Shown here: positions 20,960 to 32,011 of the stretch, one piece after another | Layout: each line of letters begins with the position of its first letter | Numbering within the stretch: position 1 is the stretch's first letter | Assembly: GCF_009914755.1 (NCBI RefSeq) | Contig: NC_060931.1 | Strand: one strand, 5' to 3' | Length of the DNA: 64,000 nt | From: the human T2T-CHM13v2.0 reference genome, Homo sapiens | The notes under the pieces: generated by a model | Database searches by the model: none | Seen by the model: the letters and a program-made list of their open reading frames with translations, nothing else | What the model was told of the DNA's origin: nothing | Made by a program: the position numbers and the translations under genes

Positions 20960-21069
20960 TGCTTTGGACTTCTAGGGGTGAATGGAGCTGGGAAGAGCAC
21001 GACTTTCAAAATGCTGAATGGTGAAGTTTCTCTAACTTCAGGACATGCTATCATCAGGACTCCCATGGG
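20960..21069 (+). CDS. ABCA13: ABCA13 coding exon (~exon 55), 110 bp, phase 0->2: [36 protein letters not shown](G); NBD2 Walker A at 20975-21001
   Basis: Acceptor tttcctcttag| at 20959 and donor GG|gtaaga at 21070. '[13 protein letters not shown](S/T)TTFKML' is the ABCA NBD2 signature. Confidence 0.97.
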
Positions 21070-25600: not shown

Positions 25601-28600
25601 TTGAATCTTCTCTCTTCTTTTCTTGGTTAATCTTGCTAATGGTCTATCAATTTGATTTGTCATTTCAGATAACCAGCTTTGTGTTTCATTTATCTTTTGC
25701 ATTTTTTTTGTTTAAATTTCATTTCATTCTGCTCTGATCTTCATTATTTCTTTTCTTCTGCTGGGTATGAGTTTGGTTTGTTTCTCTAAGTCTTTGAGAT
25801 GTGACTTTACGTTGGCTGTTTGTGCTCTTTCAGATGTTTTGATGTAGGCATTTAAGGCTATGAGCTTTCCTTTTAGCATTGCCTTTGCTGTATCCCAGAG
25901 GTTTTGACAGGTTGTGTCACTATTATCATTCAGTTCAAAGAATTTTTGAATGTTAATCTTGATTTCATTGTTGACCCAATGATCATTCAGGAGTAGGTTA
26001 TTTAATTTCTATGTATTTGCATGGTTTTGAGGGTTCCTGTTGGAGTTGATTTCCCATTTTATTCAACTGTGGTCTGAGAGAGTACTTAATATAATTGTGA
26101 TTTTCTTAAATTTACTCAGACTTGTTTTGTGTCCTATCATATGGTCTATCTTGGAGAATGTTCCATGTGCTAATGAATAGAATGTATATTCTGTAGCACA
26201 TGAATGTTCTGTAATCATCTGTTGAGTCCATTTGTTCTAGGGTATAGTTTAAGTCCATTGTTTCTTTGTTGACTTTCTGTCTTGGTGACCTGACTAGTGC
26301 AGACAGTGGAGTATTAAAGTCCTCCACTATCATTGTGTTGCTATCTGTCTCATTTTTTAGGTGTAGTAGTAATTGTTTTATAAATTTAGGAGCTCCATTG
26401 TTAGGTGCATATATGTTTAGGATTGTGATATTTTCTTGTTGGGCTAGTCCTTTTGTCATTATATAATGTCCTTCTTTATCTTTTTTTTAACTGCAGTTGC
26501 TTTAAAGTTTGTTTTGTCTGATATAAAAATTGCTACTCCAGCTTGCTTTTGGTGTCCATTTGCATGGAATATCTCTTTCCACCCCTTTACCTTAAGCTTA
26601 TGTGTATCCTTATGTGTTAGATGAGTCTCCTGAAGACAGCAGAAATTTGGTTGATGAATTCTTCTCTATTCTGCCATTCTGTATCTTTTAAGTGGAGCAT
26701 TTAAGCCATTTACATTCAATGTTAGTACTATTTGTTGCCTGAATGTCTTGTTTGTTTGTCTGTTTCATTGTGTTATTGTTATATAGGTCCTGTGAGATTT
26801 ATGCTTTAAAGAGGTTCTATTTTGGTGTATTTTGAGGATTTGTTTTAAGATTTAGAGCTTGTTTTAGCAGTTCTTGTAGAGTGGGGCTGGTAGTGGCGAA
26901 TTCTCTCAGCATTTGTTTGTCTGTAAAAGACTGTATCTTTCCTTCATTCATGAAGCTTAGATTTGCTGGATACAAAATTCTTGGCTGATAATTGCTTTGT
27001 TTAAGGAGGTTAAAAATAGAACCCTGATCCCTTCTAGCTTTCAGGATTTCTTCTGAGAAATCTGCTGTTATTCTGATAGCTTTTCCTTTATAGGTTACCT
27101 GATGCTTTTGCCTCATAGCTCTTAAGATTCTTTCCCTTGTCTTTACTTTAGATAACCTGATAACTATGTGCTTATTTGCATGGTTTTGAGGGTTCCTTAA
27201 AACGTAGGTGATGATCTTTTTTCAATGAATTTCCCAGGTGTTCTTTGAGCTTCTTGTATTTGAATGTCTAGATCTCTAGCAAGGCCAGGGAAGTTTTTCT
27301 TGATTATTCCCTCATATATGTTTTCCACACTTGTAGATTTCCCTTCTTCCTCAGGAAAACCAATTAGTCTTAGGTTTAGATGCTTAACATAATCCCAAAC
27401 TTCTTGGAGGCTTTGTTCATTTTTTAAAATTCTTTTTTCTTTGTCTTTGATGAATTGGGTTAATTAGAAAGTCTTGCCTTTGAGCTCTGAAGTTCTTGCT
27501 TCTGCTTTTCCAGTTCTATTGCTGAGACTTTCCAGTGCGTGTTGCATTTCTCTAAGTGTGCCTTGATTTCCAGAAGTTGTGATTTTAAAAAATTTATGGT
27601 ATCTATTACACTGGAGATTTTTCCTTCCATGTCCTGTATTATATTTTTGATTTATGTAAGTTAGAGTTCACCTTTCCCTGGCTCCTCCTTGGTTAGCTTA
27701 ATAATTGACCTTCTAAATTATTTTTCTGACAATTCAGAGATTTTGTTTTGGTTTTGATCCATTGCTGGTGAGCTGATACGATCTTTTAGGGGTGTTAAAG
27801 AATTATGTTTTGTCATATTACCGGAATTGTTTTTCTGGTTTCCTCCTCATTTGGGTAGACTATGTCAGAGGGAAGATCTGGGACTCTAGCTGCTGTTTAG
27901 ATTCTTTTGTCCCACAGGGTGCTCCCTTCATGTGGTGCTCTTCCCCTTGCCCTAGGAATGGGGCTTCCTGAGAGCCCAACTGTAGTGATTGTTTTTACCC
28001 TTTTGTGTTTAGCCACCCAGCAGAGCTACCAGGCTCCAGGATGGTATTGGGGAGTGTCTGCAAAGAGTCCTGTGATGTGATCCATCTTCAGGTCTTTCAG
28101 CCGTGGATACCAGCACCTGCTCAGGTGGAGGTAGCAGGGGAATGAAGTGGACTCTGAGGTTCCTTGGTTGTATTTTTGTTTAGTGTGCTGGTTTTGCATT
28201 GGTTGGCCTCCAGCCAGGAGGTGGCGCTTTCAAGAGTGTATCGGCTGCCCTTGTGGAAGAAGGATCAGGTGGTGGGTGGGGCCATAGAGTTCCCAAGAGA
28301 TTATGTGCTTTATCTTCAGCTACCAGGGCAGGTAGAGAAGGACCATCAGATGGGGGCAGAGTTAGGTGTGTCTGAGCTCAGACTCTCCTTTGGTGGGGCT
28401 TGCTGTGGTGGCAGTGGGGGTGGGTGTGTGGTTCTCAGGCCAGTGGATTTATGTTCCTCAGGGGATTATGGCTGCCTCTGCTGAGTCACACAGGTTGCCA
28501 GGGAAGTGGGGTAAGTCGGCAGTCACAGGCTTTACCCCGCTGCCATACAGCCTGCAGTCCTAAAGACAGGTCTCACTCCCACCGTGGCCCTCCCAACAGC

Positions 28601-28867
28601 ATCAAGTCAATTTCTGGGCAGTTGGTGACCAGGGCTGAGAACTTGCCCCAGAGAACTCAGCCTTCCTGCTGAGAAAGCAAATGGACTCATGGTTTTCCGA
28701 TGTCTCATTGAGCCAGCAGCAGTGATCCAGTTCCTTCAAAGGGTCTGTGGATTCTCTCAGCTTTCCTGGTATGTTCCTAGGGTAATTCTTGTAGCAAAAG
28801 TTCACGATATGAGTCTTCACATGCAGCTGTCTGAGCAGGAGCTGCAGGCTAGTCCTGCCTCCTTTCC
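22631..28867 (-). mobile_element. Near full-length (~6.2 kb) inactive L1PB1-like LINE-1
   Basis: L1PB-type 3' UTR (tttcaataggtttttggggaacaggtggtg). Broken ORF2 pieces include EN (NIYAPN.GAP, 26112-26459) and RT/C-terminal segments; ORF1 piece at 26817-27116; 5' UTR to ~28867. Diverged 17-bp TSD. Confidence 0.95.
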
Positions 28868-29087
28868 CTCTATGGTAACATCTCTGATTCTAATTCTCCT
28901 TATTGCTTTCCTTAGAACTATCAAAACAATGTTAAATGGCAATGCATTTTCTCATTTAATGGTAATATTTCTATTTATGAAATGATGGATTGAAAATTAT
29001 CTACAAATTTTCATCTAATGTAGACATTATTTTGTTGGCAATTTTATAAAAAGTTCTTACAAGAATATTTTAAATTTATCACTTTAA

Positions 29088-29383
29088 GGCCAGGTGCAGT
29101 GGCTCACACTTGTAATCCCAGCATTATGGGAGGCCGAGGTGGGAGGATCACCTGAGGTCAGAAGTTCAAGACCAGCCTGGCCAACATGGTGAAACCCCAT
29201 CTCTACTAAAAATACAAAAATTACGTGGGCGTGGTGGTGTGTGCCTGTAATCCCAGCTACTCAGGAGGCTGAAGTGGGAGAATCACGTCAACTCTGGAGG
29301 CGGAGGTTGCAGTGAGCCAAGATCACACCACTGCACCCCAGCCTGGGTGACAGAGTGAGACTCCATCTCAAAAAAAAAAAAAA
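29088..29383 (+). mobile_element. AluS (Sx/Sz-like)
   Basis: Full dimer with A tail; degraded TSD (aaatttatcactttaa / aaaattataacttcaa). Confidence 0.95.
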
Positions 29384-30094
29384 TTATAACTTCAACATTT
29401 ATAAAGTTGCATGTATTTTATAGTTCTTTTCCTTTTGACAAATTTGTTATAAATAAGAGGTAGTTGATTATCCACCTATCCTTAGCTTTCCATAATAAAT
29501 TTTATTTTTGTTAGATTTTTAATATTTTTGTTAAATTTCATATGCTAATAGTCTATATAGATTTTATATTTATTATTCATAAGAAAAATTAATTTGTTGA
29601 AAACATCATTTTCAATTTTTGCTATTAACTATTTTGCATTTTTGTAATTTTGACAATTTGTGTTTCCTTAGAAACTCATTAATTTAATTTAAAATTGCAA
29701 ATTACTTACATAGGATTATAACTATGGTTCTCCTAAAATTTGTATTTCCTTCCTATACCTGTGTCTGTATATTTGTGTTTTATTTCTATAAGTTATATTT
29801 TCCAGATTCTGACTTTTATTTTTAAAAGGATGAAATATTAATTTATTTAGAAATTCAAATTATTTTTGCTTTTCAAATTTATCAAACTTTGTCATTCTTC
29901 TTAATCCCCCACCATGCTTTTCTCAATCTAGTTTTGTTGTTTTATTTCTAACTTTTTGATTTAAGTGTTTTTTGTGTTTTTCATCTTAAAATAAAAAATC
30001 AAATTATGAGGACTACCAATATGCTTTTTGTACAGCTTTTACCTTGATCCTAAAAATGTAATAAATCATAGTATTGTTGTTATTCTCTAAATGA

Positions 30095-30728
30095 TGTTAG
30101 AAATACATTTTCAGTGCCACAAAGGAAGTAGCACTCGAACATGAATTTTCTCAGCAAGGCAATTTTACTTCTATAGAAGGATGCATCTCACGGATGGAGC
30201 AATGGCGAGAGCACACCTGAACAAGGGAGGGGAAGGAGTTTTTATCCCTGACGCAGGTAGCCCCTACTGCTGTGTCATTCCCCTATTGATTAGGGTTGGA
30301 CCACACAGTCTAAGCTAATTCCTACTGGCTATTTTAAAGAGAGCAGGGTTACGAGCCAGAGTGGTGGGATGAGCAGTTCTGGTGGGAAAGACGGTTACAG
30401 AACAAATGACTAAATGTGACTCAGGTCAGAACAGGTGACCAAGGGTGACTCAGGTTGCAGCAGGTGATCAGGGGTGACTCAGGACAGAGCAGGTGATCAG
30501 GAGTGACTCAGGATGGAGCAGGTGACCAGGGGTGACTCAGGACTGAGCAGATGACCAGGGAAACAGTTGTGAACTACTGATTACAACTGGTGGGGAGGTT
30601 GTTTACTGAAACTAGGGGAAGGAGATGAGGAGAACAAGGAAGTTAAACTTTAAAATGAAGGTCATAGAACTGAACATACTGACATACTGATACTTTGAAG
30701 AGAAACTTAGAACTCACTGTATTTAACA
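30095..30728 (-). mobile_element. Solo LTR10 (LTR10F-like, HERV-I group, ERV1), 634 bp
   Basis: Inverted termini tgtta...taaca with 4-bp TSD atga (30091-94 and 30729-32). Minus-strand start tgttaaatacagtgagttctaagtttctcttcaaag. Internal AP-1 tandem repeat. Confidence 0.85.
30416..30560. promoter_or_regulatory. 29-bp tandem repeat x5, each unit with an AP-1 site TGACTCA (candidate enhancer)
   Basis: TGACTCA starts at 30417, 30446, 30475, 30504 and 30533. Unit is about GTGACTCAGGAC(A/G)GAGCAGGTGA(C/T)CAGGG. Motifs are seen directly; activity is inferred. Confidence 0.75.
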
Positions 30729-30804
30729 ATGACATATATGATTTTAATATAGTATTTTTATCAAACTTTAGAAGGCTTTTTTTCAGATACTCATTATCTT
30801 ATTT

Positions 30805-31121
30805 TTTTCTTTCTTTCTTTCCTTTTTTTTTTTTTTTTTGAGGTGGAGTCTTGCTCTAGCACCCAGCCTGGAGTGCAGTGGTGCGATCTCAGCTCACTGT
30901 AACCTCTGCCTCCTGAGTTAAAGTGATTCTCCTGCCTCAGCCTCCTGAGTAGCTGGGATTACAGGCGCATGCCACTGCACCCGACTACATTTTGTATTTT
31001 TAGTAGAGATGGGGTTTTACCATGTTGGCTAGGCTGGTCTCGAACTGCTGACCTCAGGTGATCCACCCACCTCGACCTCCCAAAGAGCTGGGATTACAGG
31101 TGTGAGCCATCGCGCCCAGCC
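30805..31121 (-). mobile_element. AluS (Sx/Sz-like)
   Basis: Full dimer; TSD tatcttattt at 30795-30804 and 31122-31131. Confidence 0.95.
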
Positions 31122-31819
31122 TATCTTATTTCTTCCTTCAATATTTTTACAAAATAATTTTAAAGACTTTTTTGAAGTTTAATTTACATATGAAAAAGAA
31201 CATCCAATGACTTTTCATAAAATGAATATAATTATATAATCTGTACCTACCTCAAGAAACAGAACCAGACCACCAACCCATAAATTCCATCTAATCACAT
31301 CCCTGTTGAGGTTAACTCTTATTTGCATCTTTTTTGTTTTTAATACAACTTAATGTATTATTAAAGGCAATCTTGTAAACAAAACTCAGGACAAGAAGTA
31401 GAACTTTGGTAGCTAACTTATAAGTCATTCTATGTACTCCATTCCAAATACAACCTCTTCCATTTAAATGATTTTTTTTGAATTCATTACGCAAGAGTCT
31501 ATTCCTAGACACCATAGTTTAATCTTGCATGTTTGTAAGATACTTGATAGGGCCTTTAAGTTACTCAATTCACAGGTCCTTTCTCCATTCCTTTCATTTC
31601 TTTACAAACTCTCTGTCGAAGAACCTGAACTGTTGGACATGGTGAGTTGGCCTACAAACTTTGCTGACTGCATACTGATGATGGAATTTAATATGTTCAT
31701 TTGTTCTGTTTCTTGCAATTGCAGCTGGATTCAGAGGTTTAGTTAGACGCAGGTTCAATCCTTTGGCATGACTAAACAGGAGATGATGTTCTCTTTCATC
31801 AAGAGGCACATAATGTCTG

Positions 31820-32011
31820 GGCCAGGTGAGGTGGCTCATGCCTGTAATCCTAGCACTTTGGGAGGCTGTGGCGGGCGAATTGCTTGAGCCCAGAGTTTGA
31901 GACCGGTCTGGGAAACATGGGGAAACCCTGTCTCTACCAAAAATACAAAAATTAGCCAATCTCATAACCTTGTGTAAAAATAATAAATATTAAAATATAA
32001 AACTAAAAAAT
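31820..32011 (+). mobile_element. AluJ-like left monomer plus linker plus non-Alu tail, bounded by a TSD
   Basis: ttgcttgagccca (J-type). Alu similarity stops at attagcc (31957). TSD aggcacataatgtctg / aggcacataatagctg. Confidence 0.88.

What the first reader, a model, noticed from the sequence alone, without database searches (positions are those of the whole stretch)
30095..30728. Intact solo LTR10 with a 5-unit AP-1 tandem array: candidate MAPK-responsive, copy-number-variable intronic enhancer
Seen: five perfect TGACTCA sites at exact 29-bp spacing. Four units also carry CAGGTG (an E-box of the ZEB/SNAI type) and the fifth has CAGATG. There is a variant TGACTAA at 30407. Termini and the 4-bp TSD are intact. 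Established: LTR10A/F elements contain AP-1 VNTRs and act as FOS/JUN-dependent enhancers in epithelial cancers. Inference: this copy could regulate ABCA13 or a neighbour, or start antisense transcripts running towards the upstream exons. The alternating activator and repressor motifs could act as a switch, with repeat number tuning strength. I do not know whether this copy has been studied.
Basis: partly seen in the sequence, partly recalled or inferred. Interest (0 to 1): 0.7.

Follow-up and report, generated by a model that had tools for sequence, protein, structure and literature searches.

The report
Old LTR10A solo LTR, AP-1 array
This is a roughly 30-million-year-old leftover end-piece (solo LTR) of the HERV-I retrovirus family inside an ABCA13 intron, carrying five tandem AP-1 binding sites; the kind is already described in print and this copy is already marked as an enhancer in public annotation, so it is real but ordinary.

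Summary
Window 30095-30728 is a complete solo LTR (TG...CA ends, 4-bp ATGA duplication) with five perfect TGACTCA sites exactly 29 bp apart.

It is LTR10A (HERV-I). It aligns end to end at 86.2% with the element RefSeq names the 'LTR10A placental promoter' of NOS3. It carries the printed LTR10A motif context at all five units and the LTR10F context at none.

It lies on the minus strand, antisense to ABCA13. Divergence dates it to about 28-32 My, matching the printed 30 My.

RefSeq already annotates a 1.2-kb 'BRD4-independent group 4 enhancer' centred on the array.

The five units differ from each other by 3-6 of 29 bases. The array is therefore old, and strong present-day length variation looks less likely here.

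MAPK response, AP-1 occupancy, target gene and polymorphism were not testable.

Predicted ABCA13 transcripts end or splice inside the LTR.

Verdict: a known kind and an annotated copy, of low interest.

The parts
30095..30728 (-). Solo LTR10A (HERV-I family), 634 bp, complete from TG to CA. Its 5' (U3) end is at 30728 and its 3' (U5) end at 30095.
   Evidence: Sequence read. Genome copies align to positions 1-634. It is 86.2% identical over 515 aligned columns to the RefSeq-annotated LTR10A at NOS3. Orientation comes from the flanks of two proviral LTR pairs and from the strand of the printed LTR10A motif.
30091..30094 (.). Left copy of the 4-bp target-site duplication, ATGA
30729..30732 (.). 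Right copy of the 4-bp target-site duplication, ATGA
   Evidence: Perfect 4-bp duplications are also seen at 3 of 8 solo relatives that reach both ends, and at the chr3 provirus.
30416..30560 (-). Tandem array of five 29-bp units. Each unit has a perfect AP-1 core (+ strand TGACTCA at 30417, 30446, 30475, 30504, 30533). Units 1-4 have an E-box CAGGTG (30432, 30461, 30490, 30519) and unit 5 has CAGATG.
   Evidence: The LTR10A motif context CCTGAGTCACC on the - strand is perfect in 3 units and has one mismatch in 2.
30407..30413 (-). Degenerate AP-1-like site (TGACTAA on +, TTAGTCA on -) just 3' of the array in LTR sense. It sits where the paper places LTR10A's third motif.
   Evidence: It has more than 2 mismatches to the printed 10-mer, so one search does not list it.
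30330..30338 (-). TATA-like run (TTTAAAATA in LTR sense), about 70 bp 3' of the array. This is a reading of the sequence only.
   Evidence: No functional evidence.
29898..31096 (.). RefSeq functional element 'BRD4-independent group 4 enhancer', 1199 bp, with its midpoint near 30497 inside the array
28013..30711 (+). Last exon of the predicted ABCA13 isoform XM_054357327.1 (coding part 28013-28145 as in the gene table). Its untranslated tail runs through the LTR on the LTR's antisense strand and ends 17 bp before the LTR end. XR_008487533.1 and XR_008487534.1 use 28013-30256, with a splice donor (CAG|GT at 30256/30257) inside the LTR.
   Evidence: These are Gnomon models. No AATAAA or ATTAAA lies in the 40 bases before 30711 (read).

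Best explanation
Window 30095-30728 is a fixed solo LTR of subfamily LTR10A, the long terminal repeat of the gammaretrovirus-like HERV-I.

History: it integrated about 30 million years ago on the minus strand of what is now a 51.9-kb intron of the canonical ABCA13 transcript. The provirus later collapsed by LTR-LTR recombination, leaving one LTR between the 4-bp duplication. The recombination step is inferred from the structure.

Anatomy: its U3 region carries the family's 29-bp tandem repeat, here five units. Each unit has a perfect AP-1 site next to an E-box.

Likely mechanism (family-level print plus an annotation for this copy; not shown here for the endogenous locus): in cells with high FOS/JUN activity the five sites recruit AP-1 and the LTR works as an enhancer. 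In most normal tissues it is kept silent by KRAB zinc-finger/TRIM28/H3K9me3 repression, and possibly by ZEB1/ZEB2.

This copy's activity outside the chromosome has already been recorded: RefSeq lists it as an enhancer centred on the array. Its target gene, if any, is unknown.
For: Shown here:
- Structure and array.
- Family membership: 114 matches and 1100 first-look candidates in the same genome.
- 86.2% identity over 515 aligned columns to the element RefSeq labels 'LTR10A placental promoter' and mobile_genetic_element at NOS3.
- 84.4% (315 columns) and 83.9% (168 columns) to the two ends of the LTR10A near GPR137B named in print.
- An LTR10F-type copy aligns over only 157 of 312 bp of one segment and not at all with the other.
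- The printed LTR10A motif context is found 5 times, with 0 of 100 shuffles reaching 5. The LTR10F context is found 0 times.
- Orientation: 2 of 2 proviral pairs have a TGG-starting primer-site-like flank beside the same LTR end, and the chr3 pair has a purine tract beside the other end plus a CTAT duplication.
- Age: the terminal branch is 0.071 (0.061 without CpG sites), which is 32 (28) My at 2.2e-9 per site per year. The two LTR pairs, at 0.123 and 0.125, give 28 My.
- Enhancer annotation: the feature spans 29898-31096 with its midpoint near 30497. All 5 AP-1 cores of the feature lie in its central 300 bp. The group 1-4 features number 364 on chr7, about 0.3% of the chromosome, so a chance overlap is unlikely.

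From print (PMC466953 sections 6, 12 part 1, 13, 14 and passages):
- LTR10 is the HERV-I LTR, about 30 My old.
- LTR10A/F carry a 28-30-bp AP-1 VNTR.
- FOSL1/JUND bind these elements, and their activity depends on MAPK/AP-1.
- Motif number correlates with H3K27ac and FOSL1 signal.
- ZEB1/ZEB2 and ZNF562/TRIM28/SETDB1 are associated with them.
Against: - No occupancy, chromatin or expression data for this locus could be read here. The supplementary tables that may list it (S14, S24, S25) are closed.
- The paper states that many LTR10 elements have no predicted regulatory consequence and that LTR10 is heterochromatic in normal adult tissues.
- The RefSeq label is 'group 4, BRD4-independent'. In my chr7 samples AP-1 cores were typical of group 1 (16 of 20 features) rather than group 2 (5 of 20). 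Whether AP-1 explains this copy's reporter activity is therefore not established.
- That the screen was STARR-seq in HCT116 cells is my recall of Neumayr et al. 2022, which is not held.
- The subfamily call rests on motifs and named comparators, not on a Dfam or RepeatMasker run.
- The 5' part of U3 splits relatives into a group at about 84-91% identity and a group at about 75-80%. The NOS3 copy falls in the lower group (76.8%).
Confidence: 0.72

Rival explanations
1. Inert relic. The LTR is what it looks like, but at its chromosomal site it is permanently heterochromatic and regulates nothing. The RefSeq enhancer call reflects activity of naked DNA in an episomal assay only.
For: The paper reports H3K9me3 and no enhancer marks on LTR10 in normal adult tissues, and says many elements have no predicted regulatory consequence. 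The paper predicts 71 LTR10 elements as enhancers; its merged LTR10A/F set holds 649 elements. No transcript start, CAGE cluster or other regulatory feature is annotated at the LTR.
Against: All five AP-1 cores are intact in an element whose own branch is about 7% diverged. The paper reports that motif number correlates with FOSL1 and H3K27ac signal. Only 1 of 33 BLAST-picked relatives has as many cores.
Confidence: 0.4
2. RNA-processing donor. The LTR's main effect on ABCA13 is to supply, on its antisense strand, a splice donor and a transcript end for truncated or non-coding ABCA13 isoforms that begin with the cryptic exon at 28013.
For: XM_054357327.1 ends at 30711, inside the LTR. XR_008487533.1 and XR_008487534.1 splice from 30256, inside the LTR, to 31725. 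CAG|GT is present at 30256/30257.
Against: All three are Gnomon predictions. The canonical NM_152701.5 skips the whole region. No AATAAA or ATTAAA precedes 30711. The exon starts 2 kb upstream of the LTR, so the LTR does not create it.
Confidence: 0.2
3. Promoter rather than enhancer. Like the NOS3 LTR10A, it fires from the AP-1 array. This could be on the LTR's antisense strand (ABCA13 sense), or from the LTR's own TATA-like box on the minus strand, giving antisense RNA toward upstream ABCA13 exons.
For: NOS3 NM_000603.5 starts at chr7:152163824 inside the annotated LTR10A, on the last base of an AP-1 core, on the strand antisense to the LTR. That point aligns to window 30510. The NOS3 copy has the same orientation relative to its host gene as the ABCA13 copy. 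The paper says some LTR10A/F act as promoters. A TATA-like run lies 3' of the array in LTR sense.
Against: No transcript on either strand is annotated as starting in this LTR. The NOS3 exon's splice donor lies outside its LTR, so nothing transferable is shown.
Confidence: 0.1
4. Chance cluster of AP-1-like words in unique intronic DNA, not a retroviral remnant.
For: The window-wide TGACTCA count is at expectation. The LTR is not among the masked-repeat rows of 100 bp or more.
Against: The genome holds many full-length relatives. The element has TG...CA ends with a duplication, exact 29-bp period with no indels, and a match to a RefSeq-named LTR10A, which is also unmasked.
Confidence: 0.01

Closest known systems
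LTR10A/LTR10F AP-1 VNTR enhancers (Ivancevic et al., Sci Adv 2024, PMC466953)
   Same: Same family. Same 28-30-bp tandem unit holding an AP-1 site, same LTR10A motif context, and an adjacent E-box matching the reported ZEB1/ZEB2 association.
   Different: This copy is not named in the main text ('ABCA13' occurs 0 times). Binding, H3K27ac, MAPK response and polymorphism at this locus are unknown to me. Its five units are mutually diverged, unlike the expanding loci the paper highlights.
LTR10A placental promoter of NOS3 (RefSeq functional element; review PMC12682753, passages)
   Same: 86.2% identical over 515 aligned columns. Same orientation relative to the host gene. An AP-1 array sits at the homologous place.
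   Different: The NOS3 copy has 3 AP-1 cores against 5 here, and is an annotated transcription start. No start is annotated in the ABCA13 copy.
LTR10A near GPR137B (chr1), the hypervariable VNTR locus of the 2024 paper
   Same: Same subfamily and the same 29-bp unit. The flanking LTR parts are 84% identical to this copy.
   Different: It carries 212 AP-1 cores, 210 of them at exact 29-bp spacing, with near-identical units in CHM13. This copy has five old, diverged units.
Tandem enhancer repeats in the U3 of gammaretroviruses, and the VNTR of SVA elements (recalled; SVA is also cited in the paper's Discussion)
   Same: It works alike: transcription-factor sites are multiplied by tandem duplication inside a mobile element, so that repeat number can set strength.
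   Different: These are different elements and factors. No sequence relationship was tested.

Membership tests
LTR10A (LTR of HERV-I, ERV1 class) | Full-length sequence similarity to an element publicly named LTR10A | tested here: met
   NOS3 'LTR10A placental promoter'/mobile_genetic_element: 444 of 515 aligned columns identical. GPR137B LTR10A: 84.4% and 83.9% over the two non-array segments.
LTR10A (LTR of HERV-I, ERV1 class) | Internal 28-30-bp tandem repeat holding the AP-1 motif (printed as specific to LTR10A and LTR10F) | tested here: met
   Period 29, 5.0 copies, no indels. The criterion comes from PMC466953 section 13.
LTR10A (LTR of HERV-I, ERV1 class) | LTR10A rather than LTR10F motif context (strings printed in the paper's Methods) | tested here: met
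   LTR10A context: 3 perfect and 2 one-mismatch matches, all in the array, with 0 of 100 shuffles reaching 5. LTR10F context: 0 matches at up to 1 mismatch. An LTR10F-type copy aligns only partly.
LTR10A (LTR of HERV-I, ERV1 class) | TG...CA ends and a short target-site duplication | tested here: met
   TG at 30095, CA at 30728, ATGA on both sides. Relatives show 4-bp duplications: 3 of 8 solo copies and 1 provirus. That 4 bp is usual for this retroviral class is recalled.
LTR10A (LTR of HERV-I, ERV1 class) | The same LTR bounds proviruses of the family | tested here: met
   There are two same-strand pairs, 7.8 and 9.8 kb apart. Both have a primer-site-like flank, and the chr3 pair has a purine tract and a CTAT duplication. 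Inner genes were not fetched or read, by rule, and were not needed for naming.
LTR10A (LTR of HERV-I, ERV1 class) | Assignment by the Dfam/RepeatMasker model | not testable with these tools
   No repeat library is on hand. The masked-repeat rows carry no names and skip both this LTR and the NOS3 LTR10A.
LTR10A (LTR of HERV-I, ERV1 class) | Age near 30 My, present in anthropoid primates only | tested here: inconclusive
   Divergence gives 28-32 My at 2.2e-9 per site per year and 47-55 My at 1.3e-9. Orthologous sites in other primates could not be read.
AP-1/MAPK-dependent LTR10 enhancer (functional class of Ivancevic et al.) | Multiple intact AP-1 motifs | tested here: met
   5 perfect cores. 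Relatives have 0-5, and 1 of 33 reaches 5.
AP-1/MAPK-dependent LTR10 enhancer (functional class of Ivancevic et al.) | Enhancer activity measured for this copy | tested here: met
   A RefSeq enhancer feature at 29898-31096 is centred on the array. The assay and cell line are recalled, not read.
AP-1/MAPK-dependent LTR10 enhancer (functional class of Ivancevic et al.) | FOSL1/JUN occupancy and H3K27ac at the endogenous locus, and loss on MAPK inhibition | not testable with these tools
   No epigenomic data here. Supplementary tables are closed.
AP-1/MAPK-dependent LTR10 enhancer (functional class of Ivancevic et al.) | Repeat-number polymorphism at this locus | tested here: inconclusive
   Units differ by 3-6 of 29 bases, and none are identical. 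The feature is 1199 bp against the modal 1200 bp, which argues against a whole-unit difference between two assemblies. No population data.

The most novel reading that the evidence does not exclude
The ABCA13 LTR10A behaves like its NOS3 relative. In placenta or AP-1-high tumours it would fire from the AP-1 array on the LTR's antisense strand, in the ABCA13 sense direction. It would act as a cryptic intragenic promoter for short transcripts that carry only the last exons of ABCA13. The E-boxes (ZEB/SNAI-type sites) would keep it off in mesenchymal-like states.
Probability: 0.06. Interest if true: 0.5.

Novelty: already known. Interest (0 to 1): 0.2.

Why it matters
It matters little beyond bookkeeping. 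The class (LTR10A/F AP-1 VNTR enhancers) was described in 2024, and this copy already carries a RefSeq enhancer record.

The work here adds the following:
- A firm subfamily, strand and age.
- The link between the RefSeq enhancer and the AP-1 array at its centre.
- The finding that the array is old and internally diverged, so it is probably more stable than the family's headline loci.
- The observation that predicted ABCA13 isoforms borrow a splice donor and an end from the LTR.

If public epigenomic tracks showed AP-1 binding here, the copy would be one more candidate tumour-specific enhancer near ABCA13. That would be of local interest only.

Tried and rejected
1. Third LTR10A motif. I searched the printed 10-mer at up to 2 mismatches and got 49 matches against 47.35 expected. 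This is uninformative, and the TTAGTCA at 30407-30413 is not among them, so I do not use it for naming.

2. Genome-wide ranking of array length. The loose three-core pattern gave 394 matches (control 79), but only 100 were listed and these were flooded by the GPR137B array. The strict CCTGAGTCA context gave 10 matches at 7 loci (control 3), and only the window gave three overlapping matches, meaning five consecutive units. An earlier count said 8 loci; 7 is right and entry 4 corrects it. This ranks exact-context arrays only. The paper's own table of motif counts (S25) is closed.

3. Source of the RefSeq label. Neumayr et al. 2022 is not held by PMC id or DOI, and two searches found no copy. 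I read only passages in two papers that cite the label.

4. Whether 'group 4' enhancers are AP-1-rich. Groups 1 and 2 gave 16 of 20 and 5 of 20 features with a core, against 6 of 51 background tiles. The question for group 4 stays open.

5. Conservation of the cores within the array. The 9 variable columns all fall outside the 10-bp GTGACTCAGG block (P = 0.009 for that block and 0.05 for the 7-bp core). The test is post hoc, and part of the variation is ancestral difference between unit types, so I draw no claim of selection.

6. Masking. The absence of the LTR from the masked-repeat rows is meaningless, because the RefSeq-named NOS3 LTR10A is unmasked too.

7. The chr14 pair. L001 and L002 share the same 30 bp upstream and have no duplication. 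I used the pair for distance only and leave its structure unexplained.

8. Not in print. 'ABCA13' with 'LTR10' gave 0 papers. 'ABCA13' with 'endogenous retrovirus' or 'solo LTR' gave 10 listed papers, none holding ABCA13. 'ABCA13' occurs 0 times in the main text of PMC466953. Supplements were not seen.

9. The tRNA match of the primer-site-like flank (the 'I' of HERV-I) was not tested.
Full report
**1. Observation**

- TGACTCA stands on the + strand at 30417, 30446, 30475, 30504 and 30533, each 29 bp from the next.
- The word is not enriched in the window as a whole: 11 matches against 11.44 ± 3.44 expected, with 56 of 100 shuffles reaching 11. What is non-random is the arrangement.
- Tandem Repeats Finder reports one array at 30416-30560, with period 29, 5.0 copies, 84% matches, no indels and score 192.
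- CAGGTG follows four of the cores, at 30432, 30461, 30490 and 30519. The fifth unit reads CAGATG.
- TGACTAA is at 30407.
- The element begins TG and ends CA, and ATGA flanks it on both sides at 30091-30094 and 30729-30732.
- A BLAST of the element against the whole window finds only itself and its own internal repeat, so it is a solo LTR.

**2. Family**

The same genome holds many relatives: 114 matches, from 1100 first-look candidates of which 39 were scored. Many of these cover query positions 1-634, and the best other copy is 83% identical. No repeat library is on hand, so I named the element from print and from public annotation.

(a) Print. Ivancevic et al. 2024 (PMC466953; I read the outline, sections 6, 12 part 1 of 2, 13 and 14, and passages) state the following:
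- LTR10A-G are LTRs of HERV-I, which entered the anthropoid genome about 30 My ago.
- LTR10A and LTR10F alone carry a 28-30-bp VNTR holding the AP-1 motif.
- The Methods print the motif contexts of the two subfamilies.

In the window, the LTR10A context occurs at all five units on the minus strand: 3 perfect and 2 with one mismatch, against 0.64 expected, with 0 of 100 shuffles reaching 5. The LTR10F context does not occur at up to one mismatch.

(b) The NOS3 copy. One of my genome hits, chr7:152163468-152163983, coincides with a RefSeq mobile_genetic_element (152163482-152163983) inside the feature named 'LTR10A placental promoter'. A review also names an LTR10A as a NOS3 promoter (PMC12682753, passages). 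A global alignment of the window's LTR to that copy has 444 identical of 515 aligned columns, or 86.2%.

(c) The GPR137B copy. The hit at chr1:235493077-235499711 lies 45 kb from GPR137B. [quoted passage not shown] Its two ends match the window's two non-array segments at 84.4% over 315 columns and 83.9% over 168 columns.

(d) An LTR10F-type copy. A copy with a 28-bp array and 12 LTR10F-context motifs (chr1:73.0 Mb) aligns to only 157 of 312 bp of one segment, at 77.7%, and not at all to the other.

I therefore file the element as LTR10A. One reservation remains. The 168-bp segment at the LTR's 5' end splits the relatives into a group at about 84-91% identity and a group at about 75-80%. The NOS3 copy is in the lower group at 76.8%. 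A Dfam run remains the formal test.

**3. Strand**

Two same-strand LTR pairs look like proviruses: chr3, 9.8 kb apart, and chr14, 7.8 kb apart. I fetched only the LTRs with 30-bp flanks.
- In both pairs the inner flank of one LTR begins, four bases after the CA, with a TGG-led stretch of the kind that primes reverse transcription.
- In the chr3 pair the inner flank of the other LTR is a purine run, and the outer flanks share CTAT.

This puts the LTR's 5' (U3) end at window 30728 and its 3' end at 30095, so the LTR is on the minus strand, antisense to ABCA13. The printed motif, read from the family model, is on the same strand.

In LTR sense the order is: 168 bp, then the array, then the degenerate TTAGTCA, then a TATA-like run about 70 bp further on, then the rest of the LTR.

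**4. Age**

I aligned the LTR with 20 relatives (21 rows, 657 columns), masked the array zone and computed Kimura distances.
- The window's copy is 0.116-0.204 from the others, with a mean of 0.143.
- Its own terminal branch, by three-point averaging, is 0.071. The others have a median of 0.066 and a range of 0.050-0.115. Without CpG sites the window's branch is 0.061.
- At 2.2e-9 substitutions per site per year this is 32 My (28 My without CpG). At 1.3e-9 it is 55 My (47 My). Both rates are recalled values.
- The two LTR pairs differ by 0.123 and 0.125, which is 28 My at the faster rate.

This agrees with the printed 30 My. Orthologous sites in other primates could not be read.

**5. The array's own history**

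The five units differ pairwise by 3-6 of 29 positions, and no two are alike. With about 7% change per lineage since integration, two units present at integration would now differ by about 4 positions. The array is therefore as old as the insertion, or nearly so, and I see no recent duplication.

The GPR137B LTR10A in this assembly is the opposite case. It holds 212 cores, 210 of them exactly 29 bp apart, in near-identical units.

Five cores is at the top of the sampled range. The 33 BLAST-picked relatives have 0-5, and one reaches 5. Among exact CCTGAGTCA-context arrays, the window is the only one of 7 loci with five consecutive units.

The nine variable columns all avoid the 10-bp block around the core. 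The test is post hoc and I claim no selection.

**6. What is already recorded for this copy**

The chromosome's annotation file lists a RefSeq functional element, 'BRD4-independent group 4 enhancer', at window 29898-31096.
- Its midpoint, about 30497, lies inside the array, and all five AP-1 cores of the feature are in its central 300 bp.
- Chr7 has 93 such features and 364 of groups 1-4. All enhancer features together cover 1.83% of the chromosome.
- It is the only feature of these four groups in this part of ABCA13. Two others lie more than 200 kb upstream.

The source paper (Neumayr et al. 2022) is not held. That it was a genome-wide STARR-seq screen in HCT116 cells is my recall. A citing paper describes a feature of this label as dependent on BRD2, P300/CBP, MED14 and CDK7 with little reliance on BRD4 (PMC11924960, passages).

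I tried to learn whether group 4 is an AP-1 class. Group 1 had a core in 16 of 20 features and group 2 in 5 of 20, against 6 of 51 background tiles. AP-1 sites are therefore common in this screen's group 1 enhancers. Whether they explain a group 4 call is open.

Of the 92 other group 4 features, 75 are 1200 bp in CHM13, and this one is 1199 bp. By inference, the assembly on which the feature was defined and CHM13 do not differ by a whole 29-bp unit.

**7. Host transcripts**

The canonical NM_152701.5 jumps from the exon at window 20960-21069 to one beyond the window, so for that transcript the LTR is intronic. Three Gnomon models use a cryptic exon starting at 28013:
- XM_054357327.1 runs on to 30711, which is 17 bp short of the LTR end.
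- XR_008487533.1 and XR_008487534.1 splice from 30256, inside the LTR at CAG|GT, to 31725.

No usual polyadenylation hexamer precedes 30711. Nothing is annotated on the minus strand within 150 kb except one lncRNA about 120 kb away.

**8. A lead from the NOS3 copy**

NM_000603.5 starts at chr7:152163824, inside the annotated LTR10A and on the last base of an AP-1 core. It reads the strand antisense to the LTR. The point aligns to window 30510, in unit 4. The ABCA13 copy has the same orientation relative to its host. This is the basis of my most novel reading, a cryptic ABCA13-sense promoter in the array. No annotation supports it here.

**9. Mechanism and comparison**

The best reading is the family's printed one. 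AP-1 dimers on the repeated sites make the LTR an enhancer in cells with strong MAPK/AP-1 signalling. KRAB zinc-finger/TRIM28/H3K9me3 silencing holds it off elsewhere. ZEB1/ZEB2 are associated with the family by ChIP-seq and are negatively correlated with its activity.

For this copy, the sequence and a reporter-type annotation are shown. Occupancy, chromatin state, target gene, MAPK response and polymorphism are inferred or unknown. The paper itself warns that many LTR10 elements have no predicted consequence.

**10. Verdict**

The remnant is real, correctly recognised, now typed (LTR10A, minus strand, about 30 My, solo) and already annotated as an enhancer. No held paper pairs ABCA13 with LTR10, none of the ten papers listed holds ABCA13, and the closed supplements may list this copy. 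It is a known kind of element. Interest 0.2.

Noticed in passing
L039 = G000 chr1:235493077-235499711: In CHM13 the LTR10A near GPR137B carries 212 TGACTCA cores, 210 at exact 29-bp spacing, over about 6.1 kb. The paper gives up to 33 AP-1 motifs for elements in its reference and singles this locus out for germline and somatic expansion.
   Followed up: partly
window 28013-28145, and on to 30256 / 30711 and 31725-31825: A cryptic ABCA13 exon, absent from the canonical transcript, appears in three Gnomon models. These read through 2 kb of intron into the LTR and either end there or splice from a donor inside it.
   Followed up: partly
L033 = G000 chr7:152163468-152163983: The main NOS3 mRNA (NM_000603.5) starts inside the annotated LTR10A on the last base of an AP-1 core, on the strand antisense to the LTR. 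160 bp of its first exon is LTR sequence.
   Followed up: yes
L001 and L002 = G000 chr14:95551246-95551907 and 95559071-95559731: The two LTRs of this pair share nearly the same 30 bp upstream, and the outer flanks show no target-site duplication. The cause may be a longer LTR variant, a rearrangement or a local duplication; this is unexplained.
   Followed up: no
L024 = G000 chr14:21416966-21417919: This LTR copy is 954 bp long. About 450 bp sit where the window has about 125 bp of array zone, yet it has only 2 AP-1 cores. This could be a decayed expansion or an insertion.
   Followed up: no
window 30095-30728, and chr7:152163482-152163983: Neither this LTR nor the RefSeq-named NOS3 LTR10A appears among the masked-repeat rows (100 bp or more) of the annotation file. 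That masking therefore misses this family.
   Followed up: partly
G000 chrX:154095930-154096477 and chrY:62292885-62293432: Two hits have the same score and the same neighbouring genes (VAMP7, SPRY3). They are one LTR10A-like copy in sequence shared by X and Y.
   Followed up: no
window 30790-31175: A T-rich run (30802-30839) followed by Alu-like sequence lies 60 bp beyond the LTR and inside the RefSeq enhancer window. The T run is a likely place for the 1-bp length difference of the feature.
   Followed up: no
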